A stretch of DNA of 64,000 nucleotides from Escherichia virus TH47. Under the pieces are notes generated by a model. That model was not told where the DNA came from. It was given only the letters and a program-made list of their open reading frames with translations, and made no database searches. Shown here piece by piece: positions 1,087-57,642 of the stretch. The stretch lies in the sequence record MT446416.1. One strand, 5' to 3'. The position numbers and the translations under genes were made by a program. Every line of letters starts with the position of its first letter. The stretch's first letter is position 1.

Positions 1087-3373
1087 ACGCAATAACTTTT
1101 TCTACTGCTTTAGTTCGTTTAGGTTTGATTGCCAATTTACCATCAATCACATCAAACGTTACGTTACCACCATTAACCAGAGAACCACACAACATCTCTT
1201 TAGCTAGTGGGACACGGATGTTTTGCTCAATAGTGCGTTTCATTGGACGTGCACCCATTCCAACTTTAACACCATTTGTTGCCAACCACTCACGAGCCGC
1301 TTTGGTCAGTGAAACTTTAACTTTGCGGTCTTTGATTTGTTCATTCAAACTTCCCATGAACTTATCAATGATGCTGTCAATCGCTTCGCTGCTTAGGTCT
1401 TTGAATGTCACAATACTATCGATACGGTTGATGAATTCAGGTGGCAAGAATGCTTTAATCGCTTTATCTTGTGCTGTATCACTACCGCTCATCCCAATAC
1501 TACGCTTGGTTGAATCTGCTGCACCAAGGTTAGTCGTCATAATAACAGTTACGTTATTGAAGTAAACAGTTTTACCTTGTGAACCAGTCAAACGTCCTTC
1601 GTCCAGAACCTGTAGGAAGGTTAGTAGTACTTTACGATCAGCTTTTTCGATTTCATCGAGCAACAGTACTGCATTCGGGAACTGCTCAATCTTGTCGAGT
1701 AGCAGACCGTTACCAGAATCGTGACCAACATAGCCTGGAGGTGAACCAATCAGTTTAGCAACAGTATGTTCCTGTGAAAACTCGGACATATCGAAACGAA
1801 TCAGTTCAGAACCAGTTGCATCAGCCAGTGCTTTGGTAATTTCAGTTTTACCAGTACCAGATGGCCCAACAAACATGAATGCACCTTGAACACTTGATTT
1901 ATCACGCAGACCAGCACGAGCTACCATCACGTTATCAACCAGTTTCTGTACTGCTTCTTCTTGACCGTATACACGAGAACGGAGTGCATCTGGTAGATTA
2001 CGCATACGTTCACTTTCAGTGCAAGCAACCACGTTAATATCTAGGTTTGCGATACCTGCAACAACTTCTTGAATCAGTGCAACAGTGATGATGTTATCAT
2101 CAGTTTCACGAGAACGTACTTTCGCTGCCGCCGCATCCATTAGGTCGATTGCTTTGTCAGGGAAGTGTTTGTTCTTCAGGAACTTATCACTTAGTGTAAT
2201 AACTGCATCCATTGCTTCAGTACTGAACTCTACGTTATGGAAAGTTTCATAAGTAGATTTCAAACCATTCACAATCGCACGGGTTTCATCAATTGATGGC
2301 TCAACTACATCAATTTTCATGAAACGACGAGTTAGTGCACTATCTTTTTCGATGTTTTTACGATATTCATCGTAAGTTGTTGCACCGATTACACGAATCT
2401 CACCACGAGATAGTGCAGGTTTGAGCATGTTGCTCATATCCATAGAACCGTTGCTTGCTGAACCAGCACCAACCATAATATGGATTTCATCGATGAACAC
2501 AATAGTGTTTTCACGTTTCTTCAGTTCTTTTAGTAGGTTATCGATACGTTCTTCGAACTCACCACGGTACTTAGTACCAGCAGTCAGTGCACCTACGTTC
2601 AGAGACAGAATTTCAACATCTTTAAGATGCTCTGGTACTTCACCATCAGCGATTGCCTGTGCTAGACCATCAATGATTTGAGTTTTACCAACACCAGCTT
2701 CACCAGTCAGGATGGCATTCTTCTTAGTCTTACGGGCCAGAGTTTCAATCAGTGCAGAAAGCTCTTTCTGGCGACCAATCATTGGGTCAAGTTTACCTTC
2801 TTTTGCAAGTGCTGTTAGGTTAGTGGTGTAATCTTCTAAACCTTTTTGTTTGGACGATGGTTGCTGTTGTGCCACTTTTTTCTCCCCAGTTGGCTCATCA
2901 CTAATGCTTTGAAGGTTGATTCCGTTGTCGATTGCTTCTACGTGCTTCTGTAGAGTTCGTGCTGCTTCAGTACAAGTGATACCCTCTTCACGCAATGCTG
3001 CTTCTAGTGCAGTATTTGGGAAGGACAAACACTCAAACAGTACAAAATAAGCATCAATTGAGAAATCATCACGTTTAAGTTGCTCAATTACTGATTTCTT
3101 AGAAAGTTCCTGAACTACACGGTTCACGAGAAGTGATGTGCGGTTCGCTTCATCACCATCAGCACTTTTAGGTGCATGTGGGAATGTTGTATTCTTCAGA
3201 TATGCAATCAAACGACCGTGTAGGTTGTCTGCATCGATGTTCATATCTTCAAATACTGCTTTGATGCTATCGATTGTCAGTACTGTAGCACTTAGATGGT
3301 CAATAGTCAAGAAGGTATGACCCAGAGAAGTTGCCAGTTCGTCGCTTTTTTTGAATAATTGGGTAAGATTCAT
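1085..3373 (-). CDS. clpA: ClpA-like AAA+ unfoldase (Clp_N domain plus two AAA modules)
   Basis: N-terminal Clp_N-like repeats; D1 Walker A GEAGVGKT and Walker B FIDEIH; D2 Walker A GPSGTGKT and LLLDEIEKA; IGM tripeptide in D2 (ClpP-docking IGF/IGL-like loop); no ClpB middle domain. Start placed at ATG 3373 (GGAGAA SD 6 nt upstream) rather than GTG 3397. Confidence 0.85.
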   Translation of the reverse strand: MNLTQLFKKSDELATSLGHTFLTIDHLSATVLTIDSIKAVFEDMNIDADNLHGRLIAYLKNTTFPHAPKSADGDEANRTSLLVNRVVQELSKKSVIEQLKRDDFSIDAYFVLFECLSFPNTALEAALREEGITCTEAARTLQKHVEAIDNGINLQSISDEPTGEKKVAQQQPSSKQKGLEDYTTNLTALAKEGKLDPMIGRQKELSALIETLARKTKKNAILTGEAGVGKTQIIDGLAQAIADGEVPEHLKDVEILSLNVGALTAGTKYRGEFEERIDNLLKELKKRENTIVFIDEIHIMVGAGSASNGSMDMSNMLKPALSRGEIRVIGATTYDEYRKNIEKDSALTRRFMKIDVVEPSIDETRAIVNGLKSTYETFHNVEFSTEAMDAVITLSDKFLKNKHFPDKAIDLMDAAAAKVRSRETDDNIITVALIQEVVAGIANLDINVVACTESERMRNLPDALRSRVYGQEEAVQKLVDNVMVARAGLRDKSSVQGAFMFVGPSGTGKTEITKALADATGSELIRFDMSEFSQEHTVAKLIGSPPGYVGHDSGNGLLLDKIEQFPNAVLLLDEIEKADRKVLLTFLQVLDEGRLTGSQGKTVYFNNVTVIMTTNLGAADSTKRSIGMSGSDTAQDKAIKAFLPPEFINRIDSIVTFKDLSSEAIDSIIDKFMGSLNEQIKDRKVKVSLTKAAREWLATNGVKVGMGARPMKRTIEQNIRVPLAKEMLCGSLVNGGNVTFDVIDGKLAIKPKRTKAVEKVIA

Positions 3374-4978: not shown

Positions 4979-6318
4979 AAATAGATTATTATTATGATGG
5001 TCAATTTCGTCGAGTACTGAAACATCTTATCAGAGTGTTTGGTGAATTTCAAGTACAAAATGGTGTTGATGCTGACGGAAAACCAAAATATAAGAAAGTT
5101 CCTTGCCGCTATGCAGATATTTCACGTATGGCAGCAGCAATTATTAATGGTAACAGTGAGAACGTGCTTCCAACAGCACCAATCATGACCATTAGTGTAA
5201 ACCAACTTAAACTAGATCGCAAGTCAGTTCGTTCAAACGCAAATGAAACATTAGTTATGGGGACTAACAAGTCCCCTGGAATTAACGAATATACTAAAGA
5301 CTTAGATAAACAGTATAAAGTAACTCGTCATAACCCAGTACCTTGGACATTTACGTTTGATGTTAATATTTGGGTTACACAAACACAAACTAAAATGGAA
5401 CTATTTGAGCAAATTTCAACATTGTTTGCTCCTAGTATTCAATTACAACTCTCCGAGAACCCACTGGATTGGACATCATTGAGTGATGTGGAGTTGATTG
5501 ACTGTCAATTTACTACTCGTGGTTTCCCACAAGGAACCGATAGTGATTTGGATATAATGGTATTGACATTTGAAACCACAATTTGGTTCTCTTTGCCAGC
5601 TATTGTTGAGAAACCAAAACTTATCCAACAAATCACCACCAATATTAAAGGTGCTCGTGATGAACTTGATTTTGAAATTGGTAATTACTCGGATATCATT
5701 ACTGATGTATTCACACCAAAGAACTTATGTATTAAAGTTGATGAAATAACAAACTCTGAACTTAATATCCCAGATACTTACCAACTCACTCTTGTTAGTC
5801 AATCACTATCAGAAACATCACCAAATGGTGGGATTTATTCATGGGAAAAATACCTTAAGTACTTGGACCCAGAATATGAAGACAAGACTGTAGGTATTAA
5901 ATTCCAACAAGCTATAGAAGAGGATAACCCACTAAAAGGACATATCTCTTCATTTGGGGAAGGGGCTGATTCTAACAAGATTGTAGTTCAGCTTGATAAT
6001 AGTAATTATACTGTTGATTATACAATACATGGATTCATTAGTAAAGACTCTTTGTTATATAACGCACTACCTGAACAATATTATGTAAATAATAGCATAC
6101 ATAACATCATTTACAAAGAGACTGAAATCCCAGCGAACTATTTGTTTAAAATTACCAATGATGGAGCAGAACTTATTGAGCCATCGCGAGTACACCACTA
6201 TGTTTATAATATGGAAGATAGTGGATATTATAGATATAATGACAAATTCAAATGGCATAAGAGTATTATGTCAGTATATCGTCAGGGATATTGGAAAATA
6301 ACTTTCACTGACAAATAA
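4975..6318 (+). CDS. hypothetical protein
   Basis: 447-aa ORF translationally coupled to upstream gene; no recognisable motif. Confidence 0.5.
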   Translation: MKIDYYYDGQFRRVLKHLIRVFGEFQVQNGVDADGKPKYKKVPCRYADISRMAAAIINGNSENVLPTAPIMTISVNQLKLDRKSVRSNANETLVMGTNKSPGINEYTKDLDKQYKVTRHNPVPWTFTFDVNIWVTQTQTKMELFEQISTLFAPSIQLQLSENPLDWTSLSDVELIDCQFTTRGFPQGTDSDLDIMVLTFETTIWFSLPAIVEKPKLIQQITTNIKGARDELDFEIGNYSDIITDVFTPKNLCIKVDEITNSELNIPDTYQLTLVSQSLSETSPNGGIYSWEKYLKYLDPEYEDKTVGIKFQQAIEEDNPLKGHISSFGEGADSNKIVVQLDNSNYTVDYTIHGFISKDSLLYNALPEQYYVNNSIHNIIYKETEIPANYLFKITNDGAELIEPSRVHHYVYNMEDSGYYRYNDKFKWHKSIMSVYRQGYWKITFTDK

Positions 6319-23825: not shown

Positions 23826-23853
23826 ATTATATCACCTTTTTCCAAGCTGTCCC
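23826..23853 (-). promoter_or_regulatory. promoter GGGACA-N16-TGaTATAAT
   Basis: Minus-strand GGGACAgcttggaaaaaggtgaTATAAT; same architecture as sites at 44835 and 57615. Confidence 0.55.
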
Positions 23854-39256: not shown

Positions 39257-41251
39257 TTAATATTTTTTTGTGTATTTTATATTACCAGAGTTGTAAATCT
39301 TATAATATCCCAATACATCACAGCAAATTTGTCTCTCAGTTAAGTTAATATCATGACCTTTCTTGACCAATTTATGTTTTTGACATTTCTGACGTGAAAT
39401 CCTCTCATGTGTTTGTGGGTCATAATAAAAATATCCGGGTTCTGTATAGCTATCAAACTCAAAGCCAAGAACTGTATAAAGATCACCACTACTCCAATCC
39501 ATATCCGCATATGTCAATAATGATTGTGGATTATATACTGTTTCAAAATATTTTAGTAATTTTGATGCACCACCAACAACTGTACCGGATGAACAGTATC
39601 TGATTAATTCATATTCATAGTTTTTATCAAACCTTGATTTACCAAAGGTCATAACTGCAACTAAATCACTTCCATAGTAAAGTCCAATGTGAATACTTGC
39701 TTGTGCAACACCTTGAATATGGTGTGATTTAGTAAACATATTACTTACTTGTTTGTCTATATTTCTAACAGTACATTTTCTAGCATAAATTCTATTTGAC
39801 ACTAGAAGTTTATTCTTTAAACGTTCCTTGATAATTTTATTTGTTAATGGGTTATCCCATTCATCTTCATAAATGTGAATAAGATTCACCCCATGTTTTA
39901 AACAATCCAATACCTTATCTTGATGTTTAGTGGAATTTACATTTTCATCATTATGCCAATACACACCATTAAATTCAATAGCTAGATTACGGTCTGGGAT
40001 ATACACATCCAACTCTTTAGGTTTCAGCACTGAACGGTCGTTTTCTATAATTTGCATATTTTGTATTAATGATTTTATATAATCAACTAAATCTTTCTCT
40101 TTCAATGAATGACCATTATTTTTCTGACACTTACATTTCACTTTATGATTTTTATACTTACTATAAAACAATTCATCACAATACTCACACCAAAATGGGT
40201 ATTCGTCTGTATTAACTTTCATCATTAGGTCGGTGTTTTCAAATAATGGAATATAGTTTTTATCAATATTTGCAACAATGATATTATATCTTTCGTCTAG
40301 ACGAGCAAGTGACATTTTCTCTTTATACTCATCAGTCTGTGAGTAGTGTTCTGAACCATATCTATTTTTTGTGGTTTCTTTCATTTTTTCAATGATAGAA
40401 TTATTTTGGGCTGGGTGTTTTACACCATATCGCTCCACATTGGTATTATGAACTTTTTCCTGAACACTCATATTGCTCATTGGGTAAAATGAATTATACT
40501 TCAACGTGTTGGTGTTTTTTATTTTATCTTGGACAATTTTATTTGATAGTGGATTGCCACCATATCGTTCAAGATTTGTTTTATTGATTTTTTCACGAAT
40601 CGTCGGTGATGATAAAGAATACTCAGCACCGTATCTTAATATATTTGTGTTTTTGGCTTTCTCTTTTACTTCATTTCTTTTGCTTTGGAATTCAACACCA
40701 TACTTTTTTAAATTTGTTGCTTTTACTTTATTGAATATTTCAGAGTTTTGGTTTGGATATTCACAACCATATCGCTCTATATTAGTTTGTTTGATTTTAT
40801 CTTTAGTTTCTGATGTTTGTAAATTAGATGAGACACCATAACGCTCAATGTTAGTTTTTTCTTTCTTTTGTTTTACTTCTTGTATTTGGGACACATTAGA
40901 TACACCATACATATCCATTAATGTTGATTTTGTTTTATTAGTTCGATTTTTATAATACATTTCATGGCATACATTACATGTATTTTTCTTATTAATCACA
41001 TAGTCATCACAAAATTTATAAAATCCTTTTTGGAAATTTTTGTATCTTGCTTTTTTTCCGCAATATGCAGTTGGAACGGTTGTTATATCATTCATGAACA
41101 TATATAGAATTTTATATATTTCGAAATCAGTTTTTGGTTCTATTCCAAAAGTAGAAAGGAGAACCCTCACACGAGAGTCCCCTTTGTATAAATGTACCCA
41201 TGAATTAATATGTTTTGACAACAAAAGTTTTTTTAATTCTTCATTGTTCAT
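39257..41251 (-). CDS. homing-endonuclease-like protein with ten ~23-aa RYG repeats and a Vsr-like nuclease domain
   Basis: Cys-rich N-terminus; ten ~23-aa R/K-Y-G/N repeats; C-terminal LAIEFNGVYWH motif typical of PD-(D/E)xK homing-endonuclease-like domains. Confidence 0.6.
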   Translation of the reverse strand: MNNEELKKLLLSKHINSWVHLYKGDSRVRVLLSTFGIEPKTDFEIYKILYMFMNDITTVPTAYCGKKARYKNFQKGFYKFCDDYVINKKNTCNVCHEMYYKNRTNKTKSTLMDMYGVSNVSQIQEVKQKKEKTNIERYGVSSNLQTSETKDKIKQTNIERYGCEYPNQNSEIFNKVKATNLKKYGVEFQSKRNEVKEKAKNTNILRYGAEYSLSSPTIREKINKTNLERYGGNPLSNKIVQDKIKNTNTLKYNSFYPMSNMSVQEKVHNTNVERYGVKHPAQNNSIIEKMKETTKNRYGSEHYSQTDEYKEKMSLARLDERYNIIVANIDKNYIPLFENTDLMMKVNTDEYPFWCEYCDELFYSKYKNHKVKCKCQKNNGHSLKEKDLVDYIKSLIQNMQIIENDRSVLKPKELDVYIPDRNLAIEFNGVYWHNDENVNSTKHQDKVLDCLKHGVNLIHIYEDEWDNPLTNKIIKERLKNKLLVSNRIYARKCTVRNIDKQVSNMFTKSHHIQGVAQASIHIGLYYGSDLVAVMTFGKSRFDKNYEYELIRYCSSGTVVGGASKLLKYFETVYNPQSLLTYADMDWSSGDLYTVLGFEFDSYTEPGYFYYDPQTHERISRQKCQKHKLVKKGHDINLTERQICCDVLGYYKIYNSGNIKYTKKY
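40277..40939 (-). repeat. in-frame ~69-bp tandem repeats encoding the RYG modules
   Basis: RYG/KYG/RYN recur every 22-24 residues (protein positions ~115-323). Confidence 0.6.
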
Positions 41252-42069: not shown

Positions 42070-42075
42070 AAAAAA

Positions 42076-42117
42076 AGCACCTCATTAATGTTTATATATA
42101 CATTATTTAGAGGTGCT
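42076..42117 (-). promoter_or_regulatory. SD-sequestering hairpin with TAAATA late-like motif in its loop
   Basis: Stem agcacctc/gaggtgct; 3' arm contains the SD; loop carries TAAATA 34 nt upstream of ATG 42069. Confidence 0.45.
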
Positions 42118-42122
42118 AATAC

Positions 42123-42350
42123 TTATTTTGAATTATACAAGCAGTACAGGTATACCAACGGAGTAAAATGTTCTGAATCTATAGCATATATTAACTGTGT
42201 AACATATATTCCGTATAAATCTCGACTTTTATCTCGGTACATTAACAATGAATTATTAAAGTATGGGTCAACCCAGTACTTTATATTATTTAACATCAAT
42301 GTATTGTTTCTGTATCCTGATAATTTTAAGCATTTAGCCAACTTTTTCAC
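42123..42350 (-). CDS. possible small ORF (75 aa), uncertain
   Basis: GTG start, overlaps upstream gene by 17 nt, no clear SD. Confidence 0.25.
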   Translation of the reverse strand: MKKLAKCLKLSGYRNNTLMLNNIKYWVDPYFNNSLLMYRDKSRDLYGIYVTQLIYAIDSEHFTPLVYLYCLYNSK

Positions 42351-42711
42351 AATTACTTAGTAAGTGTGTGATTACATCGGCAGTGAATGGTCCTAGAACT
42401 AAAACTTCTTCTCCATTACCGAAGATACTCAATGGTACAGATTGTTGTCCTGCTAGATATTCGATTTGTTCTAATTCGAAAATGTCATCAGCAGCATAAA
42501 CAACCTGTTCCATTTCATTATCTTTAATCCATGACTGCCAATGTTCTTTAAACTGCTTCGCTTCGTATTCCAGCACATAGTTAGGTGATTCTGGATTGTA
42601 CTGATGTAGCATTGTCATACCAGCCATGACCAGTTCTTTTGGTGATGGAGTAGAATCTTTCAGTACTACGATAGCTTGGATAGTTTTAACTTTAACGTTT
42701 TGAGCAGCCAT
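42334..42711 (-). CDS. hypothetical protein
   Basis: 125-aa ORF with AGAGGT SD. Confidence 0.5.
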   Translation of the reverse strand: MAAQNVKVKTIQAIVVLKDSTPSPKELVMAGMTMLHQYNPESPNYVLEYEAKQFKEHWQSWIKDNEMEQVVYAADDIFELEQIEYLAGQQSVPLSIFGNGEEVLVLGPFTADVITHLLSNCEKVG

Positions 42712-42723
42712 TAGATACCTCTA

Positions 42724-43032
42724 TTATAGAATGATTTTGTTATCAGGAACAATCAGTGCTGGTTTTTCTTCGATAGCCTTGATTGCTTCAACATAAGCTT
42801 CAACTAGTGCAGGGTTTGCATCACTGATGCTGATGATGTTGGATTTATAAAAAATAACGCCTTTTTCAGAACTAATGAATTCTAGGTAATCACGTAGAAT
42901 GATTTCACCTTGTTCGTCAGTACCTAGCTGTGCTGGGTAGTTAACTACTACTGCTTCAGGTGCATCATTTTGTAGAATTGCTAGTACTGGGCCAACGCTG
43001 TTGATGTTTAGTAGTTTAACGGTCATAGTCAT
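42724..43032 (-). CDS. hypothetical protein
   Basis: Start placed at ATG 43032 rather than TTG 43041. Confidence 0.45.
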   Translation of the reverse strand: MTMTVKLLNINSVGPVLAILQNDAPEAVVVNYPAQLGTDEQGEIILRDYLEFISSEKGVIFYKSNIISISDANPALVEAYVEAIKAIEEKPALIVPDNKIIL

Positions 43033-43051
43033 TTTTGTCAAGTCCTTTTGT

Positions 43052-43528
43052 TTATTTTATAATGTATAAGTGTTTTTCTGCATTAACCAGTCTGTGGTCA
43101 ATGATTTCTTTGATAACGTTCCAGTTACCACCGCCTAAATCGGCTCCAATTTTCGGGAAGTGTACATGAACAGTGCGTTCAACGTTACATAAGTAATTGA
43201 GTTGTTTGAAAACATCATCGATTGCATCATAACTCACATACTTAGAACCGTCATTACCATAGTACTTTTGGGTAATGCAGTTTGCGATAAGCAAATCATC
43301 ACTTATAGAAGAATATGAAATTTGTCCTGTTCTTAGAAATCCCATTTCCTTTTCATATGCTTTATAATCATCATATGCCATCGGGTAACGATTTCTTAGT
43401 TCTTTTGCAAAACCCGAACCCATCTTACCCTGTGCATTACAACCATGAGCGATTATATGCAACGCGGTTTGATCATCAGTAACAGTGTTGAACAATTCAA
43501 ACAAATTACCTAGGTGTTCATGTATCAT
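43052..43528 (-). CDS. macro-domain-like protein (ADP-ribose binding/processing fold)
   Basis: HGCNAQGKMGSGFA and FPKIGADLGGGNW resemble the two glycine-rich macro-domain motifs; GGAGAA SD. Confidence 0.55.
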   Translation of the reverse strand: MIHEHLGNLFELFNTVTDDQTALHIIAHGCNAQGKMGSGFAKELRNRYPMAYDDYKAYEKEMGFLRTGQISYSSISDDLLIANCITQKYYGNDGSKYVSYDAIDDVFKQLNYLCNVERTVHVHFPKIGADLGGGNWNVIKEIIDHRLVNAEKHLYIIK

Positions 43529-43537
43529 TATATTCTC

Positions 43538-43567
43538 CGAAAAGAAAGGACTCTGTAATCAGAGTCC
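43538..43567 (-). terminator. rho-independent terminator/attenuator
   Basis: ggactct/agagtcc stem followed by tttcttttc on minus strand, immediately before the macro gene SD. Confidence 0.5.
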
Positions 43568-43579
43568 TTAATTTATATT

Positions 43580-43837
43580 TTATTCTTCTTCACCGAATCG
43601 AATTTTTTTCAATTCTTTTCGTTGTTTGCGAGCAATGGTACTTTTGTGAAGTCTATTACCACGTTTTGTGTCTTTCGTGATGTACCATGAATCTTCTGGT
43701 GCATTATAATCACAATAACCATCTTCTGTAATCGTCCCTAAGAAAGCAGACTTTTTAGGAATGGATGTTTGAGCTTTAGCAGCGAATTGGCCTTTTGCTA
43801 ATTGTTCACGAAAACTGAGCATAATAGTATCTCCCAA
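43580..43837 (-). CDS. hypothetical basic protein
   Basis: 85-aa ORF, Lys/Arg-rich C-terminus. Confidence 0.4.
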   Translation of the reverse strand: MGDTIMLSFREQLAKGQFAAKAQTSIPKKSAFLGTITEDGYCDYNAPEDSWYITKDTKRGNRLHKSTIARKQRKELKKIRFGEEE

Positions 43838-43867
43838 ATTGTTACGAAGAACTTGTGTTCTTCATTA

Positions 43868-44110
43868 TTATTTAGGGTTGCTCGAAACCTCTACTGAAGC
43901 GATGAATGCCAAAATATCATCTTTACTGAAAGCTTCAATAATATAAGCAACCGCTTTATCGTACTGTTCTTTCTTAGTAGTGTATTCTTTCATTTTGTGA
44001 ATTTTACGTTGTGCTTTAACTTTTGCAGCTTCCATATCAGGCATTTTAAATTCAACACCCAATGTGTCAGCTAAATGTTTTGCACGAGATGATACTTTAT
44101 CAATATTCAT
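43868..44110 (-). CDS. hypothetical protein
   Basis: 80-aa ORF. Confidence 0.4.
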   Translation of the reverse strand: MNIDKVSSRAKHLADTLGVEFKMPDMEAAKVKAQRKIHKMKEYTTKKEQYDKAVAYIIEAFSKDDILAFIASVEVSSNPK

Positions 44111-44358
44111 TAATTCCAGCGACCTTCTTTAAGACCTTCAACGAAACCAGTACAGCCACCTGGAACGTAAACATCGTTTACGAAAATTTGTGGAACCTGT
44201 CGTACTGGCTCGCCACATAGTTCAGATAGTTTAGCACCATCAATACCAGCGGTAACAATATCGATAAACTCCATATCAAATTTGTTATTTTCACATACTG
44301 CTTTTGCAGTGTCGCAGAATTTACAACCAGTAGTGCGACCATAAATTTTAACTTTCAT
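44110..44358 (-). CDS. glutaredoxin/NrdC-like redoxin
   Basis: CKFC active-site CxxC near N-terminus and PQIFVND...GG motif. Confidence 0.65.
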   Translation of the reverse strand: MKVKIYGRTTGCKFCDTAKAVCENNKFDMEFIDIVTAGIDGAKLSELCGEPVRQVPQIFVNDVYVPGGCTGFVEGLKEGRWN

Positions 44359-44758
44359 TTCTTTTCCCTTTATTTCGTTGAAACATCGTAACAGCCTTTA
44401 TTATACTGTTACACATTCGTTCAGTCAAATACTTTTGACAATCTAGTACATCAATGTACATGAACTTATCCAATTCTGGGTGACTTCTACCATATCGGTT
44501 TGTGTAAGTACTCTTACACTCTAACTCTTCTGGTATAGGCTTATCTTTGGCTGTATAGAAAAATAAAACTAAACGTTTCCCCTTTCTATACGATACATCA
44601 CCAAGAAACAGAAGATCATCTTCATCGATTTCATATCCTGTCTCTTCGTAGCATTCGCGAACAGCAGCCTCTTTAAATGTTTCTGTACCTTCAGTTTTAC
44701 CTTTAGGTAAGTCCCAGTGATTCTGTCCGTGTTGTATGCCCGATAAGTATCTGACCAT
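44348..44758 (-). CDS. Nudix hydrolase (second copy)
   Basis: Nudix box GKTEGTETFKEAAVRECYEETGY; start ATG 44758 very close to a -10 element (possible short leader). Confidence 0.65.
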   Translation of the reverse strand: MVRYLSGIQHGQNHWDLPKGKTEGTETFKEAAVRECYEETGYEIDEDDLLFLGDVSYRKGKRLVLFFYTAKDKPIPEELECKSTYTNRYGRSHPELDKFMYIDVLDCQKYLTERMCNSIIKAVTMFQRNKGKRNES

Positions 44759-44834
44759 CACGATAAAATATTATACCACAACTATAACGCATAATCTTAT
44801 CTCTTTATCATCAAGTGATGTTCAGATACTAGTA

Positions 44835-44862
44835 ATTATATCAGAAGATGTTAACTTGTCCC
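44835..44862 (-). promoter_or_regulatory. promoter GGGACA-N16-TGaTATAAT
   Basis: Minus-strand GGGACAagttaacatcttctgaTATAAT just after the CCA-enzyme stop; a second TGgTATAAT lies at 44770-44778. Confidence 0.55.
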
Positions 44863-44867
44863 AGCTT

Positions 44868-45983
44868 TTAGAACATTTGCTTGATTGCTTCAATACGCAA
44901 TTCAGCAACAAAATCACGAATCTCTGATGTTTGGAGTTCACCATCTTTCACTAACTGCTGAATATCAGGTAATTCAACATCAGTATAACGATCATAAACT
45001 TTAATAATCAAATCTTCAAGATCAGAATCAATTTCTTTGTTCAAAATGAAGTTTTCCAGTACTTTGTAAAGGAAATCTTCGCCACCATTGTTTTTGATAT
45101 TCATCTCCAGTAAGATTTGTCCCATTTCAACGGGGGTCTTCTTACGGAAGGTTTTAATATCTTCACGGAAACGCTTGATGTAATTACTAAACTTCACGTA
45201 CTTAACTGGAACCTTAATAGAACCATTAAGTACTGAATCATTATTTACTTCTTCATTTTCAAGAAGTACTGTCCATAAGAAATATGGTTTATATTCTTCT
45301 GTACAATTTGCAGCGATAGCATCAATTAATTCCAGACGTTTCTTGGTAACTGGAACTGTAGTAAATGCCTTTTCGTAATAACCAAATTGTACCAGAGTTT
45401 TGATAAACTTGGAAGGGTTTTCTTCAGAAAGTGCTTTTTCGAATTCAACAAAAACACGATCTGGAACTAGATGGTCTAGTTCACCAGTACTAACCATATC
45501 TTTACACATTGTCATAGTATCATCATGGATTGTAAAGTCTGAGTAACGTGTAGCGAAACGTGCCAAACGTAGTACACGCAATGGATCTTCTTTAAAGTGT
45601 TCTGATACATGACGAAGTACTTTGTTCTTGATATCAGCTTTCCCGCCATAAGGGTCGATGTGAATCTGGAGTACTGGATCATACGCTATGCTATTTACCG
45701 TAATATCCCTTCTGTATAGATCTTGCTCTAGTGTCACGCCTTTAGTATTCACTTCGAAGCCACCGTAGCCAGTACCAGTTTTACGTTCGGTACGTGCCAA
45801 TGCGTGCTCATTACCCTCTGGACTTAGATACACTGGAAAATCCTTACCTACTTGCTTATAGCCAATACTTTGTAAGTACTTAATATCGGATTCGGTAGCA
45901 CCGACAATGACATAATCTTTGTCTTTTGCACGAATACCCATTAAACGGTCCCTCACATAGCCGCCCACCAAATACTTTTTCAT
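44868..45983 (-). CDS. cca: tRNA nucleotidyltransferase (CCA-adding enzyme), head domain only
   Basis: YLVGGYVRD...KDKDYV, EHALARTERK, GYGGF, TLEQDLYRRDITVNS, EDPLRVLRLARF match E. coli Cca as recalled; no HD domain. Confidence 0.85.
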   Translation of the reverse strand: MKKYLVGGYVRDRLMGIRAKDKDYVIVGATESDIKYLQSIGYKQVGKDFPVYLSPEGNEHALARTERKTGTGYGGFEVNTKGVTLEQDLYRRDITVNSIAYDPVLQIHIDPYGGKADIKNKVLRHVSEHFKEDPLRVLRLARFATRYSDFTIHDDTMTMCKDMVSTGELDHLVPDRVFVEFEKALSEENPSKFIKTLVQFGYYEKAFTTVPVTKKRLELIDAIAANCTEEYKPYFLWTVLLENEEVNNDSVLNGSIKVPVKYVKFSNYIKRFREDIKTFRKKTPVEMGQILLEMNIKNNGGEDFLYKVLENFILNKEIDSDLEDLIIKVYDRYTDVELPDIQQLVKDGELQTSEIRDFVAELRIEAIKQMF

Positions 45984-47047
45984 AATATACCTTCCTCTGA
46001 AAGATGTTTTTTTAATACAGTTAAGTGGTCTTCATAATATGTTACACGTATTAATTTAATAAAATTCTTTTCACAATATTGTGTCTTTATAGTATCGTTA
46101 TCCTTGATGTTTTTCAATTTATCTTCTCCACCCCAATGAGGTGATTTCTCAAAATGTTGTTTACCATCATACTCAATACAAATATCATAATCAACCAAAT
46201 AAAAATCAAATCTTAATAACATTTTATTTTTACAGTCACTAAATGTTTGTTCTTTATTAAATTTTATACCATTTTCAATTAAAAAACGTGTTATTTCTCT
46301 ACTAGCTCTGGATTCAGTATGTTCAGATGAGCATATTGGGCAACCTTGTTTTTTATTTTTTGCTATATGAAAATTTGGAATGATATAAAAAGAATTATTA
46401 TGTTTTTTACAAATTATTTCAACATGAGTGCTACTATTAATGTAGATGACTTTTGAATAGTCATATACATTACCATGAATTTCTTTTGCTCGTTCAACAA
46501 ATTCAGCGGTGGTGAATGCGTGTGCTAATCTGGTTTTTTCAAATCGACAAATAGAGCAACCCTGACCACTTTGTATATTACTAATTTCCATTTCATCAAC
46601 GTGACCACATTTTAAGCATTTATAAGTTAATTTGGTTCTTTTATCTTTAATTATTGGTTGTTCTAAAAGTAATTCACATTCACCAGTCATTAGACTTTTT
46701 GAAGTCTTATAAAGATAATATCTATAATTTGCATTGTCATATTTCCCAATGATATATTTCATACCTTTCGTTTTTATATCATTTATATTTCTTTTTGTAT
46801 ATATAATACCATCTTTTTCAACAACAGTTCTTGTAAAACTAGATTTCCATTCATCACTTGATGTTATAGCAAATCCTAAAATATTATATCCTTTTTCTAT
46901 TATTTCTTCAAAATGTTCTTTAGGTGTTTTTGATGTTTTAATTAATTTTGGTGATAAATCTTCGGGACGCATCCATTCGAAACGCATACCTAATTCTTCA
47001 TGGAAATATACCTTCTCGTTATTTTCATTAAAATAAAATTTATACAT
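45980..47047 (-). CDS. homing-endonuclease-like protein (zinc ribbons plus Vsr-like nuclease motif)
   Basis: CLKCGH...CSIC and CPIC zinc-ribbon pairs; RFDFYLVDYDICIEYDGKQHF motif shared with the 39257-41251 protein. Confidence 0.55.
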   Translation of the reverse strand: MYKFYFNENNEKVYFHEELGMRFEWMRPEDLSPKLIKTSKTPKEHFEEIIEKGYNILGFAITSSDEWKSSFTRTVVEKDGIIYTKRNINDIKTKGMKYIIGKYDNANYRYYLYKTSKSLMTGECELLLEQPIIKDKRTKLTYKCLKCGHVDEMEISNIQSGQGCSICRFEKTRLAHAFTTAEFVERAKEIHGNVYDYSKVIYINSSTHVEIICKKHNNSFYIIPNFHIAKNKKQGCPICSSEHTESRASREITRFLIENGIKFNKEQTFSDCKNKMLLRFDFYLVDYDICIEYDGKQHFEKSPHWGGEDKLKNIKDNDTIKTQYCEKNFIKLIRVTYYEDHLTVLKKHLSEEGIL

Positions 47048-47190: not shown

Positions 47191-47613
47191 TTAAATCAAT
47201 CTGTCACGTAGACGGTCGTAATATTTTGCATGTATATCTAGTATACACTGAAATGATGGATAGTCAATACTAAATGTATCATCAATGAACATGTACTGAT
47301 CAAGTGTTTCAGGACCATTATCAACAACTGGCAATGAACCTTCTTTTTTTGACAGTGTGTTCCACATCAACTCACATGTAGTATCGAAAATTGCGTATGT
47401 TAATTCTATCTTACTTTTTCTAAGTGTAATTAATAATTCATCATTCTCTTCTAACGAGTTTCGTATTTTTATACGTACAGTACCCTGAAATTTATTAGTG
47501 GTTAGTACTCTATATTGATTATACGAAATTATACCTCGTATTTCAGTACTGATTTCTTGTTCAGAAAAGAACCTTACTGTACTGTGGAAATTTGGTATTT
47601 TACGAATGTCCAT
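47191..47613 (-). CDS. hypothetical protein, paralog of next gene
   Basis: Shares QYxFIDDTF(S/G)xD(Y/F) motif with 47600-48013. Confidence 0.45.
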   Translation of the reverse strand: MDIRKIPNFHSTVRFFSEQEISTEIRGIISYNQYRVLTTNKFQGTVRIKIRNSLEENDELLITLRKSKIELTYAIFDTTCELMWNTLSKKEGSLPVVDNGPETLDQYMFIDDTFSIDYPSFQCILDIHAKYYDRLRDRLI

Positions 47614-48013
47614 TCAAATTCCTTTCGTATATATGGTATACGTTCATTATACTATTATATAGATCAAAGTCAAATCCAAATGTGTCATCAATGAACTGAT
47701 ATTGTAGATATTCTTCATATGAAGCATCAATTGGTAATGAGCCATTACGCACATCATCTGATTTAAAATCGTCAATGTATCTTAATGTTATGTCTTCATC
47801 AACCGTGATATCTATCATCAACGTATCGTCACTGTACCATAGGTTGTGTATACGGATGTAAAGTCTCTTAGCACGATTAAACCAAGATACATTGGTATAG
47901 CGATGAAGTTTGTCTAAATTGAAGAAAAAACCTGACTCGTTCTTACTTATGTTTTTAATATGTTCTGCAATCGGTTCAATTATATGAACAATGTTGAATG
48001 TTTTCATAAACAA
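47600..48013 (-). CDS. hypothetical protein, paralog of previous gene
   Basis: Shared C-terminal motif; tandem arrangement. Confidence 0.45.
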   Translation of the reverse strand: MFMKTFNIVHIIEPIAEHIKNISKNESGFFFNLDKLHRYTNVSWFNRAKRLYIRIHNLWYSDDTLMIDITVDEDITLRYIDDFKSDDVRNGSLPIDASYEEYLQYQFIDDTFGFDFDLYNSIMNVYHIYERNLNGHS

Positions 48014-52120: not shown

Positions 52121-52345
52121 TTAAACGTTATCATCATCCAATATTTCACGGTAAACATAATAAACATGTGTACCTAGAAGAACAATGAGTACAATGAAGA
52201 CTAACCAGAATGGTACAAAATGCAGTACAAGTGCAAATGCCATTACGGTAATAATCATTACTACTGAACTGAAAATAAGACTGGTCGCTTTTTTAAATCC
52301 AGATAGTACATCATTCAAAACGCGTTTCATAAATGAATCAACCAT
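52121..52345 (-). CDS. small membrane protein (two predicted TM helices)
   Basis: Two hydrophobic segments. Confidence 0.4.
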   Translation of the reverse strand: MVDSFMKRVLNDVLSGFKKATSLIFSSVVMIITVMAFALVLHFVPFWLVFIVLIVLLGTHVYYVYREILDDDNV

Positions 52346-52922
52346 TTTTCTTCCTCATATAATCCATATAGCAAGTTCTGCATAGACTCTTGTATGATTC
52401 ATCACCACCAATAAAGACTTTATCAGTACTTTCAACTATACGGGCATTCATAGTGGCTTCTTTGCCACACTTCTGATTCTCACACACGTTCTTAAGTTCA
52501 TGTATGTCATCAGCTATTTCGAACAGTCTTTGTGAACCTTCAAAAAGATTGGATTCAAAATCTGTTCGGATTCCATAACAGGAAACATCAACACCATAAT
52601 TATCTGCTATATCAGCTAAATGGTCAATTTGTTCTCTGTTTAAAAATTGACATTCATCAACATAGATACTGTTAATGTCAACGTCATTTTTGAGTGTTTC
52701 TTTAACTTTAAGAAGAACACTAATGTCATTTTTTGGAATTACTTCAGCCTCAGCTTCGATGCCAATTCTCGAAGTAATCTTTCCTGTTCCATAACGATCA
52801 TCAAGTGCACTGGTTAAGTAAATTACCTTCATTCCATTTTTCTTATGGTTATATGCTTTTTGTAAAAGATGAGTACTTTTACCACTAGACATACTACCAT
52901 AGTAATATACTAATTTACTCAT
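52338..52922 (-). CDS. tdk: thymidine kinase
   Basis: P-loop GSMSSGKST, VDECQFL, CYGIRTDF, C-terminal zinc ribbon; collinear with E. coli Tdk as recalled. Confidence 0.9.
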   Translation of the reverse strand: MSKLVYYYGSMSSGKSTHLLQKAYNHKKNGMKVIYLTSALDDRYGTGKITSRIGIEAEAEVIPKNDISVLLKVKETLKNDVDINSIYVDECQFLNREQIDHLADIADNYGVDVSCYGIRTDFESNLFEGSQRLFEIADDIHELKNVCENQKCGKEATMNARIVESTDKVFIGGDESYKSLCRTCYMDYMRKKNG

Positions 52923-57614: not shown

Positions 57615-57642
57615 ATTATATCACTAGGATGTATTATGTCCC
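57615..57642 (-). promoter_or_regulatory. promoter GGGACA-N16-TGaTATAAT driving the non-coding unit
   Basis: Minus-strand GGGACAtaatacatcctagtgaTATAAT just after the stop of the 57644-58057 gene. Confidence 0.55.

What the first reader, a model, noticed from the sequence alone, without database searches (positions are those of the whole stretch)
43052..45983. Cluster of macro-domain-like protein, redoxin, Nudix hydrolase and CCA-adding enzyme
Macro domains and Nudix hydrolases both act on ADP-ribose or NAD-derived nucleotides, and a CCA-adding enzyme restores tRNA 3' ends. Together, under a GGGACA-type promoter, they look like a module for countering host defences that use ADP-ribosylation, NAD depletion or tRNA 3'-end cleavage. 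No tRNA gene is visible in this window.
Basis: inference. Interest (0 to 1): 0.6.

Follow-up and report, generated by a model that had tools for sequence, protein, structure and literature searches.

The report
Jumbo-phage accessory genes, frameshifted Nudix gene
The four genes are real, but they are a known, conserved run of separate accessory genes in 121Q/Rak2-type giant coliphages (the macro protein resembles T4's anti-DarTG2 factor), and the only unexpected feature is that the Nudix gene can be read in full only if the ribosome shifts frame by +1 at the phage's rarest codon.

Summary
The window comes from an Asteriusvirus-like (121Q/PBECO4/fEgEco12) jumbo coliphage. All four predicted domains are present at the stated coordinates, on the minus strand.

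- **Macro (43052-43528):** a homologue of T4 Tk.4/AdfM, the anti-DarTG2 factor, and of SCO6735/BT1257. It keeps their NxxTQ motif.
- **Nudix:** the orthologue of T4 NudE.1.
- **Redoxin:** a GrxA-type glutaredoxin.
- **CCA enzyme:** an E. coli-type head and neck without the HD domain.

The genes do not form one unit under one promoter. The conserved (G/T)GGACA-N13-CTGATATAAT promoter lies after the CCA gene. A conserved terminator separates the Nudix/Grx group from the macro gene.

The same gene order occurs in Yersinia, Klebsiella, Serratia and Erwinia jumbo phages. T4 carries the macro and Nudix homologues in the equivalent genome arm.

Close relatives encode tRNAs elsewhere, and three of six lack an encoded CCA. 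This gives the CCA enzyme an ordinary job.

One feature appears to be new. In the eight E. coli-clade sequences examined (this window and seven relatives), nudE carries a 1-nt insertion that needs a +1 shift at ACA-ACA-C-GGA. The zero-frame codon there, CGG, is the rarest in the window, and both halves show the substitution pattern of coding sequence.

A counter-defence role is plausible for the macro protein only. The NAD-depletion idea is unsupported.

The parts
45980..47047 (-). Free-standing homing endonuclease gene (355 aa), inserted just upstream of the CCA gene and overlapping its start by 4 nt. It is not part of the conserved block.
   Evidence: PHROG 559/9084 HNH/homing endonuclease, E 1.8e-51. 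It is absent from fEgEco12. In phage A4 it sits at the same site with 98.9% aa identity, while the flanking genes are about 86% identical.
44868..45983 (-). Class II tRNA nucleotidyltransferase (CCA-adding type), 371 aa. It has an E. coli-type head and neck, no HD phosphohydrolase domain, and a lineage-specific C-terminal half.
   Evidence: Pfam PolyA_pol plus PolyA_pol_RNAbd. NCBIfam NF008137 matches positions 1-204 of 409, E 1.2e-82. PDB hits are CCA- and A-adding enzymes, over the N-terminal half only. The motifs GGYVRD/DKD, RRD and EDPLR can be read in the translation. Full-length relatives occur in only 73 phage records.
44835..44862 (-). Sigma-70-like promoter: GGGACA, 16-nt spacer, TATAAT, with an extended -10 (TGATATAAT). 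It lies between the CCA stop and the nudE start.
   Evidence: In eight phages (G/T)GGACA and CTGATATAAT are conserved while the 13 nt between them vary. Sister sites with the same architecture lie at 23853..23826 and 57642..57615.
44730..44792 (-). nudE, first segment: ATG at 44792 plus 21 codons (MRYSCGIIFYRDGQILIGHTT), in the frame that then meets ACA-ACA-CGG.
   Evidence: Read. It is preceded by a conserved AAGAG Shine-Dalgarno-like sequence. It is identical in length to the N-terminus of the intact orthologues in Yersinia, Salmonella and Klebsiella phages. Variable sites by codon position are 1/0/6.
44729..44729 (-). Extra C that forces a +1 shift (ACA ACA C GGA). [quoted passage not shown]
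   Evidence: It appears as a 1-nt insertion relative to Yen9-04 and phiKp_21 in the alignment. It is shared by all eight E. coli-clade sequences examined. CGG occurs 2 times in 19,443 codons in the window.
44348..44728 (-). nudE, second segment (126 codons plus stop). It carries the Nudix box GKTEGTETFKEAAVRECYEETGY and is the orthologue of T4 NudE.1.
   Evidence: Pfam NUDIX 8e-12 and PHROG 1185 1e-45. The joined protein is 38% identical to T4 NudE.1, E 5e-20. Variable sites by codon position are 23/13/77.
44110..44358 (-). GrxA-type glutaredoxin (82 aa, active site CKFC). Its start overlaps the nudE stop.
   Evidence: Pfam Glutaredoxin 1e-8. NCBIfam GrxA family 5.8e-18, below that model's curated cutoff. 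Best PDB match is E. coli glutaredoxin 1, 1EGO, E 9e-10. It is fused in frame to the Nudix protein in phages EJP2 and Hallingskeid.
43868..44110 (-). Small ORF (80 aa), function unknown.
   Evidence: PHROG 34640, unknown function. Conserved in Asteriusvirus phages and in Klebsiella phage phiKp_21.
43580..43837 (-). Small basic ORF (85 aa), function unknown.
   Evidence: PHROG 15319, unknown function. Conserved in all three genera examined.
43546..43569 (-). Intrinsic terminator (10-bp stem, 4-nt loop, T-rich tail) immediately upstream of the macro ribosome-binding site.
   Evidence: The hairpin is kept through compensatory changes in A4, 121Q, Yen9-04 and phiKp_21.
43052..43528 (-). Stand-alone macrodomain protein (158 aa) of the ALC1-like class, SCO6735/BT1257 subclass. 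It is a homologue of T4 Tk.4/AdfM.
   Evidence: PHROG 335 7e-46. PDB sequence hits: BT1257 1e-15, SCO6735 3e-11, DarG. AlphaFold2 model pLDDT 93. Foldseek top hits are BT1257, SCO6735, Poa1p, DarG and TARG1. BLASTP against T4 Tk.4 gives 29% identity, E 5e-12. N83/T86/Q87 are invariant, including in T4 Tk.4.
42724..43041 (-). ORF of about 100 aa, function unknown. The likely start is the ATG a few codons inside the listed TTG.
   Evidence: PHROG 527, unknown function, 3.8e-22. Conserved in synteny.
42334..42711 (-). 125-aa protein with a Pth2 (peptidyl-tRNA hydrolase 2)-like fold. The stretch holding the archaeal RDAG motif is deleted, so activity is uncertain.
   Evidence: Homologue P0130 carries PF01981. 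A profile search of PDB puts archaeal Pth2 on top, E 0.04. The AlphaFold2 model has pLDDT 74. The 12 best Foldseek hits are all Pth2/Bit1, E 7e-6 to 1e-4, and the next hit is at E 0.1.
42123..42350 (-). Small ORF (75 aa) not annotated in fEgEco12, followed by a hairpin plus T-run (42117..42070) that abuts the neck-gene ATG.
   Evidence: ORF. The coding sequence and the hairpin AGCACCTC...GAGGTGC-T7 are conserved in 121Q; the hairpin is also conserved in A4. No PHROG match.

Best explanation
The interval is a conserved stretch of individually acting accessory genes in a 121Q/Rak2-type jumbo coliphage. It lies between a nucleotide-metabolism and early-gene arm (thymidine kinase, lysozyme) and the neck, dNMP-kinase and tail-sheath genes. 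It is not one operon.

**Transcription, as read from the sequence**
- The homing endonuclease and CCA genes are read from further upstream.
- A conserved sigma-70-like promoter then drives nudE, grx and two small ORFs up to a conserved terminator.
- The macro gene, a ~100-aa ORF, a Pth2-like ORF and a small ORF follow, up to a second hairpin before the neck gene.

**Functions, inferred from homology**
- *Macro:* an orphan-antitoxin-type ADP-ribosyl hydrolase like T4 AdfM and SCO6735. It would remove ADP-ribose that DarT2-type toxins place on thymidine in phage ssDNA.
- *Nudix:* the NudE.1 orthologue. It would hydrolyse ADP-ribose, Ap3A and FAD and remove NAD caps from RNA. It could also dispose of ADP-ribose released by the macro protein.
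- *Glutaredoxin:* a GrxA-type reductant, most simply for ribonucleotide reductase.
- *CCA enzyme:* adds or repairs the 3' CCA. It has a ready substrate in the phage's own tRNAs, half of which lack an encoded CCA.

**The nudE frameshift**
In the E. coli-infecting clade, full-length NudE can be made only by a +1 ribosomal shift at ACA-ACA-C-GGA, where the ribosome would pause on the very rare CGG codon.
For: **Identity and synteny**
- The window is 96.6% identical to WPEC5 and 96.5% to fEgEco12, and about 85% identical to 121Q/PBECO4.
- The order CCA-Nudix-Grx-(p80)-p85-macro-p105-p125-neck is kept in Asteriusvirus, Eneladusvirus (Yersinia) and Alcyoneusvirus (Klebsiella).
- T4 carries the same PHROGs in the equivalent arm: tk 592, macro 335, nudE 1185 and dNMP kinase 139.

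**Transcription signals**
- The promoter hexamers are conserved while the spacer varies.
- The terminator is kept through compensatory changes.

**Macro**
-.
- A T4 tk.4 knockout is sensitised to DarTG2.
- SCO6735 Gln85 is essential and the enzyme cleaves thymidine-linked ADP-ribose.

**Nudix, glutaredoxin, CCA**
- Nudix. T4 NudE.1 substrates.
- Glutaredoxin.
- CCA. In fEgEco12, tRNA-Asn and both tRNA-Thr lack CCA.

**Frameshift**
- The insertion is present in all eight E. coli-clade sequences checked. Orthologues are intact in Munch, EJP2, Hallingskeid, Yen9-04 and phiKp_21.
- Both segments show third-position bias: 1/0/6 and 23/13/77.
- CGG is used 2 times in 19,443 codons.
- CGG is a documented +1-prone A-site codon in E. 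coli (PMC2790909).
Against: - No activity was measured for any protein here.
- The macro protein is only 29% identical to T4 AdfM. The AdfM result itself is a preprint and a genetic result, with no biochemistry.
- The macro gene sits directly behind a terminator with no promoter of its own found, so its expression is unexplained.
- The P-site tRNA-Thr cannot re-pair in the +1 frame (ACA to CAC). No conserved Shine-Dalgarno-like stimulator was seen upstream, so shift efficiency could be very low.
- The third-position test on the N-terminal segment rests on only 7 variable sites.
- T4 also has tRNAs without an encoded CCA, yet has no CCA enzyme. The tRNA-maturation role is therefore not compulsory.
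- The tRNA evidence comes from a close relative, not from this phage's own sequence outside the window.
Confidence: 0.6

Rival explanations
1. One reading: the four genes form one co-regulated counter-defence module under a single promoter. Together they would neutralise ADP-ribosylating, NAD-depleting and tRNA-3'-end-cleaving host systems.
For: - The adjacency is conserved across three phage genera.
- The macro protein is homologous to an anti-DarTG2 factor.
- A chain from macro to free ADP-ribose to Nudix is chemically sensible and was proposed for jumbo phages (PMC7824862).
- The T4 counterpart arm also holds tk.4/adfM.
- A related contig carries Acb1 near its CCA and Nudix genes.
Against: - The promoter lies after the CCA gene, and a conserved terminator precedes the macro gene.
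- In T4 the macro and Nudix genes are about 6 kb apart and there is no CCA gene.
- In the more distant contigs L007 and L008 no macro gene was detected in the fetched flanks of about 8 kb around the CCA gene.
- These genomes are collinear over tens of kilobases, so adjacency carries little information.
- Nothing here restores NAD.
- The glutaredoxin has no evident defence link.
Confidence: 0.15
2. Pure housekeeping, with no anti-defence role. The macro protein would be an ADP-ribose-1''-phosphate phosphatase like yeast Poa1p, clearing by-products of NAD-dependent RNA repair or splicing. The Nudix enzyme would finish the job. The CCA enzyme and the Pth2-like protein would service phage tRNAs, and the glutaredoxin would feed ribonucleotide reductase.
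For: - Poa1p is among the sequence and fold matches (E 2e-6).
- PHROG 335 is labelled "phosphatase".
- CCA-less phage tRNAs exist in the lineage.
- The surrounding arm is rich in nucleotide-metabolism genes: tk, dNMP kinase, NrdD/NrdG.
Against: - BT1257, SCO6735 and DarG match better than Poa1p in sequence, and BT1257 and SCO6735 also rank above it by fold.
- The NxxTQ motif is the one needed for SCO6735 activity on ADP-ribosylated DNA.
- The T4 family member has a defence-dependent phenotype.
- No Tpt1/KptA or RNA ligase gene was seen in the window, though the rest of the genome was not searched.
Confidence: 0.15
3. The nudE frameshift is a fixed inactivating mutation. NudE is a pseudogene in the E. 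coli clade, or only an N-terminally truncated product is made from the internal GTG/ATG that the GenBank records annotate.
For: - Every GenBank record inspected in this clade annotates only the short ORF.
- The site has no re-pairing potential and no recognised stimulator.
- The clade is fairly young, with 83-99% DNA identity over this region.
Against: - Both segments keep open frames of exactly orthologous length in eight sequences down to about 83% identity.
- Substitutions are concentrated at third positions. The upstream 63 nt are more conserved (7 of 63 sites variable) than the downstream part (113 of 363).
- The true ATG has a conserved Shine-Dalgarno-like sequence, while the internal start has none.
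- The truncated product would lack the first 21 residues of the intact protein, which by inference form the first two beta-strands of the Nudix fold.
- The shift site places the genome's rarest codon in the A site.
Confidence: 0.25

Closest known systems
T4 Tk.4 / AdfM (anti-DarT factor, macrodomain)
   Same: - Same PHROG (335).
- Stand-alone protein of about 155 aa.
- 29% identity, E 5e-12.
- Shared HGCN...MGSG and NxxTQ motifs.
- Located in the same tk-to-tail genome arm.
   Different: - Low identity.
- The loop after the TQ motif is 4 residues longer here.
- The gene sits after nudE rather than next to tk.
- No phenotype is known for this protein.
SCO6735 / BT1257 subclass of ALC1-like macrodomains, with DarG and TARG1 as more distant relatives
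   Same: - Best sequence and fold matches.
- Gln at the position of DarG Lys80 / TARG1 Lys84. This Gln is essential in SCO6735.
   Different: - This is a phage protein with no partner toxin.
- It lacks the C-terminal DarT-binding domain of DarG.
- The mobile loop is 2 residues shorter than in BT1257.
T4 NudE.1 (gene e.1) Nudix hydrolase
   Same: - Same PHROG (1185).
- 38% identity over the whole reconstructed protein.
- REC.EETG Nudix-box core.
   Different: - Here the gene is split by a 1-nt insertion and needs +1 recoding.
- It overlaps a glutaredoxin gene, and is fused to it in EJP2 and Hallingskeid.
E. coli multifunctional CCA protein (Cca)
   Same: The head and neck match positions 1-204 of the 409-position model (E 1.2e-82), with motifs A-D present.
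   Different: - There is no HD domain, so none of the 2',3'-cyclic phosphodiesterase or phosphatase activities.
- The C-terminal 165 residues have no detectable match outside Rak2-type phages.
E. coli glutaredoxin 1 (GrxA) / T4 NrdC
   Same: About 82 aa, CxxC active site, cis-Pro (VPQIF) and GG motifs. Best PDB hit is 1EGO.
   Different: The active site is CKFC rather than CPYC. The score is below the NCBIfam cutoff. T4 NrdC itself was not among the hits.
+1 frameshifting at slowly decoded A-site codons (E. coli prfB; yehP GTT-CGG-C; yeast Ty3; influenza PA-X)
   Same: [quoted passage not shown] CGG is a documented +1-prone codon in E. coli.
   Different: - No stop codon at the site.
- No conserved upstream Shine-Dalgarno-like stimulator.
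- The P-site tRNA cannot re-pair, which is more like Ty3 than like prfB.
- Nothing has been tested experimentally.

Membership tests
ALC1-like macrodomain, SCO6735/BT1257/AdfM type | Macrodomain fold | tested here: met
   AlphaFold2 pLDDT 93. Foldseek probability 1.0 to BT1257, SCO6735, DarG and TARG1, TM-score 0.73-0.83.
ALC1-like macrodomain, SCO6735/BT1257/AdfM type | Gln at the position of the DarG/TARG1 catalytic Lys (SCO6735 Gln85) | tested here: met
   Q87 in CITQ aligns with MIGQ of BT1257. It is invariant in 36 homologues and is present in T4 Tk.4. Its role in SCO6735 is from PMC9411070.
ALC1-like macrodomain, SCO6735/BT1257/AdfM type | Hydrolysis of thymidine-linked ADP-ribose on ssDNA; protection against DarT2/DarTG2 | not testable with these tools
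   Needs an enzyme assay and plaque assays.
DarG antitoxin (type II TA) | Macrodomain plus C-terminal DarT-binding domain, encoded next to darT | tested here: not met
   Only the macrodomain part of the DarG models is matched: positions 19-136 of 329 and 20-140 of 338, at 33 bits against a cutoff of 250. No darT-like neighbour is present.
Nudix hydrolase, T4 NudE.1 type | Nudix box GX5EX7REUXEEXGU | tested here: met
   GKTEGTETFKEAAVRECYEETGY can be read in the translation. The two U positions are C and Y, as in T4 (RECLEETGF).
Nudix hydrolase, T4 NudE.1 type | One uninterrupted reading frame covering the whole fold | tested here: not met
   A 1-nt insertion at 44729 splits the gene. A full-length product needs a +1 shift.
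Class II CCA-adding enzyme | Head-domain motifs A (GGxVRD, DxD), B (RRD), D (EDxxR) and the flexible loop | tested here: met
   GGYVRD...DKD, ARTERKTGTGYGGF, RRDITVN and EDPLRVLR are in the translation. Pfam and NCBIfam matches.
Class II CCA-adding enzyme | Adds C, C, A rather than poly(A), or CC only, or A only | not testable with these tools
   The score against E. coli-type CCA (278 bits) is far above PcnB (91 bits) and the A-adding model (66 bits). Specificity still needs an assay.
Multifunctional CCA protein (E. coli Cca) | C-terminal HD domain | tested here: not met
   No HD match in Pfam or NCBIfam. The model is matched only over positions 1-204 of 409.
GrxA-type glutaredoxin | Thioredoxin fold with a CxxC active site and cis-Pro | tested here: met
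   CKFC and VPQIF are present. Pfam Glutaredoxin scores 35.7 bits, above the cutoff of 22.9. 1EGO alignment. The equivalog cutoff is not reached: 64.8 against 84.
Peptidyl-tRNA hydrolase 2 (Pth2) | Pth2 fold | tested here: met
   The 12 top Foldseek hits are all Pth2/Bit1, though on a model of only moderate confidence (pLDDT 74).
Peptidyl-tRNA hydrolase 2 (Pth2) | Catalytic motif region (RDAG loop of archaeal Pth2) | tested here: not met
   In the profile alignment, the chain residues rda and the following loop fall opposite gaps in the phage family.
Single co-transcribed counter-defence operon | One promoter upstream of all members, with no internal terminator | tested here: not met
   The promoter lies between CCA and nudE. 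A conserved terminator lies between p85 and macro. This rests on sequence only, with no transcript data.
Programmed +1 ribosomal frameshift | Both frames under purifying selection across the shift, a conserved shift site, and a slow zero-frame A-site codon | tested here: met
Programmed +1 ribosomal frameshift | Demonstrated trans-frame protein product | not testable with these tools
   Needs mass spectrometry or a reporter assay.

The most novel reading that the evidence does not exclude
In the E. coli-infecting Asteriusvirus clade, NudE would be made only through a conserved programmed +1 ribosomal frameshift at ACA-ACA-C-GGA. The ribosome would stall there on CGG, the rarest codon of the genome.

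This would be a natural bacterial-virus example of shifting at a hungry arginine codon without re-pairing of the P-site tRNA. It is currently mis-annotated as a truncated gene in every clade record inspected.

A more speculative extension follows. Shift efficiency, and with it the dose of NudE and the overlapping glutaredoxin, would track the supply of charged tRNA-Arg(CCG). That would tie the gene to the state of the tRNA pool, which the neighbouring CCA enzyme and Pth2-like protein also touch.
Probability: 0.5. Interest if true: 0.55.

Novelty: new member of a known kind. Interest (0 to 1): 0.38.

Why it matters
- **The cluster is already known.** These genes are annotated in dozens of deposited jumbo-phage genomes. 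Their general counter-defence reading was published in 2021-2022, and the T4 member of the macro family was tied to DarTG2 in 2025.
- **A testable prediction for the macro protein.** 121Q/Rak2-type therapeutic candidate phages should resist DarTG2 through this gene.
- **A correction for the CCA enzyme.** It is mislabelled "multifunctional" in several records, although it has no HD domain. Before any anti-defence role is invoked, note that half the phage's own tRNAs lack an encoded CCA.
- **The nudE split is the new item.** A conserved 1-nt insertion is tolerated in every clade genome examined, with coding constraint on both sides and the rarest codon at the junction. If confirmed, it adds a natural phage case of +1 frameshifting at a hungry arginine codon. 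It would also correct the annotation of a whole genus.

Tried and rejected
- **tRNAs and known RNAs.** ARAGORN found no tRNA in the window. Rfam at E<=1 over 38-50 kb gave only a sub-threshold sRNA match.
- **Related loci.** A viral-contig scan with the CCA protein returned only 3 loci. That is too few to test co-occurrence statistically. In the two distant loci no macro gene lies near the CCA gene.
- **Flanking endonucleases.** I asked whether the two homing endonucleases flanking the block form a repeat-bounded cassette. They are barely related and share no DNA repeat.
- **Late promoter before macro.** I looked for a T4-type late promoter (TATAAATA). A near match in this phage is not conserved in relatives.
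- **Frameshift suppressor tRNA.** I asked whether a phage tRNA-Thr could read a 4-base codon. Both tRNA-Thr(UGU) genes of fEgEco12 have ordinary 7-nt anticodon loops (read).
- **Transcriptional slippage.** Rejected as the frame fix, because the site has no homopolymer run.
- **p125 as an active peptidyl-tRNA hydrolase.** Not accepted. The fold matches, but the catalytic loop is deleted.
- **NAD-depletion countermeasure.** Rejected. No NAD-salvage gene is in the block, and the Nudix orthologue hydrolyses ADP-ribose-type dinucleotides and NAD caps rather than restoring NAD.
- **Virion proteomics.** The phAPEC6 virion-proteome paper's main text does not mention any of these proteins; its protein tables were not searched.

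Full report
**What the window is**

The 5.1 kb around the finding matches 37 phage records. The best matches are Escherichia jumbo phages WPEC5 (96.6% identity) and fEgEco12 (96.5%). The 121Q/PBECO4 group follows at about 85%. All genes in this part of the window lie on the minus strand.

**Checking the observation**

The four proposed proteins are real ORFs at the stated coordinates.
- 43052-43528 hits Pfam Macro only weakly (E 5.7e-4, below the gathering score). It hits PHROG 335 at 7e-46, and the DarG models of NCBIfam and PADLOC at 3.7e-8 and 1.2e-10.
- 44110-44358 is a glutaredoxin (Pfam 1e-8; GrxA family 5.8e-18; best solved relative E. coli Grx1).
- 44348-44761 is a NUDIX protein.
- 44868-45983 has the head and RNA-binding domains of class II nucleotidyltransferases. 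It matches the E. coli-type CCA model over positions 1-204 of 409 at E 1.2e-82, with no HD domain.

No tRNA gene is present in the window. Two small conserved ORFs of unknown function lie between the glutaredoxin and macro genes.

**The promoter claim**

A GGGACA-16-TATAAT site with an extended -10 lies at 44862..44835. In eight related phages the elements (G/T)GGACA and CTGATATAAT are kept while the 13 bases between them vary. That is the footprint of a real promoter.

The site lies between the CCA stop codon (44868) and the Nudix start, so it cannot serve the CCA gene. A 10-bp hairpin with a T tail at 43569..43546 sits between the 85-aa ORF and the macro ribosome-binding site. It is preserved through compensatory changes in A4, 121Q, Yersinia phage Yen9-04 and Klebsiella phage phiKp_21. 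A second hairpin with a T-run abuts the neck-gene ATG.

The block is therefore at least three transcription segments, not one unit. This rests on sequence only, with no transcript data.

**Synteny**

The order CCA-Nudix-Grx-small ORFs-macro-p105-p125-neck is the same in Asteriusvirus, in Eneladusvirus (Yersinia fHe-Yen9-04) and in Alcyoneusvirus (Klebsiella phiKp_21). In Serratia BF only the CCA-Nudix-Grx part was examined, and it has the same order.

The surrounding arm runs from thymidine kinase (52338-52922) through a lysozyme-domain protein to dNMP kinase (38269-38949) and the tail sheath. T4 has the same PHROG families in the corresponding arm: tk, then Tk.4 (PHROG 335), lysozyme, NudE.1 (PHROG 1185), the tRNA cluster, dNMP kinase and the tail genes.

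The co-location is inherited genome architecture. It cannot be scored against chance within this lineage. In two more distant CCA-bearing contigs no macro gene was detected in the fetched flanks. One of them has CCA, a HAD hydrolase, a glycosyltransferase, Nudix, an AlkB-like oxygenase and, further on, Acb1.

**The macro protein**

An AlphaFold2 model built on 36 homologues has pLDDT 93. Its best solved neighbours are BT1257, SCO6735, Poa1p, DarG and TARG1. Sequence search gives BT1257 at 1e-15 and SCO6735 at 3e-11.

SCO6735 removes ADP-ribose from thymidine in DNA and rescues DarT toxicity. It has an essential Gln85 where DarG and TARG1 have the catalytic lysine (PMC9411070). The phage family has an invariant N-x-x-T-Q with Q87 at that position, and T4 Tk.4 has it too.

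T4 Tk.4 was recently named AdfM, because a tk.4 knockout becomes sensitive to DarTG2 (bioRxiv 10.1101/2025.11.20.689424). The window protein is 29% identical to it (E 5e-12).

The best inference is an orphan-antitoxin-type ADP-ribosyl hydrolase acting on phage DNA. It is not a DarG: it lacks the DarT-binding domain and has no toxin neighbour.

**The Nudix gene and its frameshift**

The listed ORF begins at an internal GTG with no Shine-Dalgarno sequence. Thirty bases upstream, behind a conserved AAGAG, an ATG at 44792 opens 21 codons in another frame: MRYSCGIIFYRDGQILIGHTT. These are the normal N-terminus of this Nudix family.

The orthologues in Yen9-04, phiKp_21, Salmonella phage Munch, EJP2 and Erwinia phage Hallingskeid are uninterrupted and read GHTTGQxHW. 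The E. coli clade carries one extra C, giving ACA ACA C GGA. The sequences checked are this window, fEgEco12, PBECO4, 121Q, JNE01, Turkey5, UE-S1 and A4.

Across those eight sequences the variable sites fall 1/0/6 by codon position in the upstream segment, read in its own frame, and 23/13/77 in the downstream segment. The upstream 63 nt are the more conserved part. My own calculation gives about 0.007 for the chance of 6 or more of 7 sites at third positions, on few sites.

The zero-frame codon after the second ACA is CGG. It is used twice in 19,443 codons of the window, about ten times less often than the next rarest codon. CGG is a documented +1-prone A-site codon in E. coli (PMC2790909).

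I therefore favour a conserved +1 ribosomal frameshift over a pseudogene, at roughly 50-60%. Three points weigh against it: the P-site tRNA cannot re-pair, no upstream stimulator is conserved, and nothing has been measured.

The joined protein is 38% identical to T4 NudE.1 (E 5e-20). NudE.1 hydrolyses ADP-ribose, Ap3A and FAD and decaps NAD-RNA in vitro.

**Glutaredoxin**

It is GrxA-like, with a CKFC active site. Its start overlaps the nudE stop. In EJP2 and Hallingskeid the two are a single 225-227-aa ORF. The simplest role is as a reductant for ribonucleotide reductase. Why it is coupled to NudE is unexplained.

**CCA enzyme**

Motifs A, B and D and the flexible loop are present. The score against the CCA models far exceeds that against PcnB or the A-adding model. 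The HD domain is absent, so the label "multifunctional CCA protein" used in several records does not apply.

About 495 phage records encode relatives of the head domain. Only 73 match over the full length.

fEgEco12 has six tRNA genes about 170 kb away. The tRNA-Asn and both tRNA-Thr genes lack an encoded CCA. That gives the enzyme an immediate housekeeping substrate in a host whose own tRNA genes all encode CCA (established knowledge).

T4 also has tRNAs without an encoded CCA and no CCA enzyme, so this role is helpful rather than obligatory.

Repair of defence-clipped tRNA tails remains possible. The Cas12a3 paper states that viral countermeasures to tail cleavage are unknown.

**Extra member**

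The 125-aa ORF at 42334-42711 is called an aminoacyl-tRNA hydrolase in some records. One homologue carries PF01981. The 12 best fold matches are all Pth2/Bit1, on a model of moderate confidence. The stretch holding the archaeal RDAG motif is deleted, so I file it only as Pth2-like in fold.

**Comparison with what is known**

Macro, Nudix, NADAR and CCA genes of jumbo phages have already been interpreted as tools against ADP-ribose-based defences and for RNA repair. T4-like NudE genes have been noted next to late and lysozyme genes (PMC7824862 and PMC9503650).

The finding is thus a new member of known kinds. It is plausible but unproven for the CCA enzyme. It is wrong about a shared promoter and about NAD depletion.

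**Verdict**

This is an ordinary, already-annotated accessory block of a known phage group. It contains one unexpected and testable feature, the conserved +1 split of nudE.

Noticed in passing
window 44729-44792 (minus strand); L011-L014, L001, L002, L006: nudE is split by a 1-nt insertion (ACA ACA C GGA) in all eight E. coli-clade sequences examined, with the window's rarest codon (CGG, 2 of 19,443) at the junction. Every clade GenBank record inspected annotates only the truncated downstream ORF.
   Followed up: yes
L016 314-991 (Escherichia phage EJP2); L017 316-999 (Erwinia phage Hallingskeid): Nudix and glutaredoxin form one continuous ORF of 225-227 aa. In the window the two genes overlap by 11 nt in different frames. 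This hints at a functional or translational coupling that I cannot explain.
   Followed up: partly
window 45980-47047: The homing endonuclease gene is 98.9% identical in protein to the one at the same site in phage A4, although the flanking genes are only about 86% identical. It is absent from the much closer fEgEco12. This looks like recent lateral homing next to the CCA gene.
   Followed up: partly
window 39257-41251: A second, unrelated homing endonuclease (664 aa, PHROG 3339/559) carries many tandem ~23-aa units ending in ERYG. It lies between the neck and dNMP-kinase genes. fEgEco12 has only a 279-nt ORF there.
   Followed up: partly
window 3412, 26886, 26980 (TTGACA class); 23826, 44835, 57615 (GGGACA class), all minus strand: There are two families of strong promoter-like sites sharing TGATATAAT: near-consensus TTGACA-N14-TGTGATATAATG and GGGACA-N13-(C/G)TGATATAAT. 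GATATAAT occurs 19 times, against 5.3 expected.
   Followed up: partly
window 42123-42350 and 42070-42117: A 75-aa ORF not annotated in fEgEco12 fills most of the 260-nt gap before the neck gene. A conserved long hairpin plus T7 ends right at the neck ATG.
   Followed up: partly
L005 (fEgEco12 290000-300000): 3201-3273, 4988-5061, 5068-5141: Three of the six phage tRNA genes (Asn and two Thr-UGU) lack an encoded CCA. Ser-UGA, Ser-GCU and Met encode it.
   Followed up: yes
L007 8001-14309 (340-kb IMG/VR contig): A more distant jumbo phage has CCA, a HAD hydrolase, a GT4 glycosyltransferase, Nudix, an AlkB-like 2OG-Fe(II) oxygenase and, 2.5 kb further on, an Acb1 anti-CBASS gene.
   Followed up: partly
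L009 2804-3130 (fEgEco12 97803-98129, just beyond the window's right end): A DUF4326 ORF sits between the anaerobic ribonucleotide reductase (NrdD-like) gene and its activase gene. The jumbo-phage survey links DUF4326 to NAD/ADP-ribose systems.
   Followed up: no
window 47191-47613 and 47600-48013: Two adjacent, overlapping ORFs of about 140 aa are paralogues: they cross-hit each other's positions in related phages at 33-45% identity over 42-89 residues. Function unknown.
   Followed up: no
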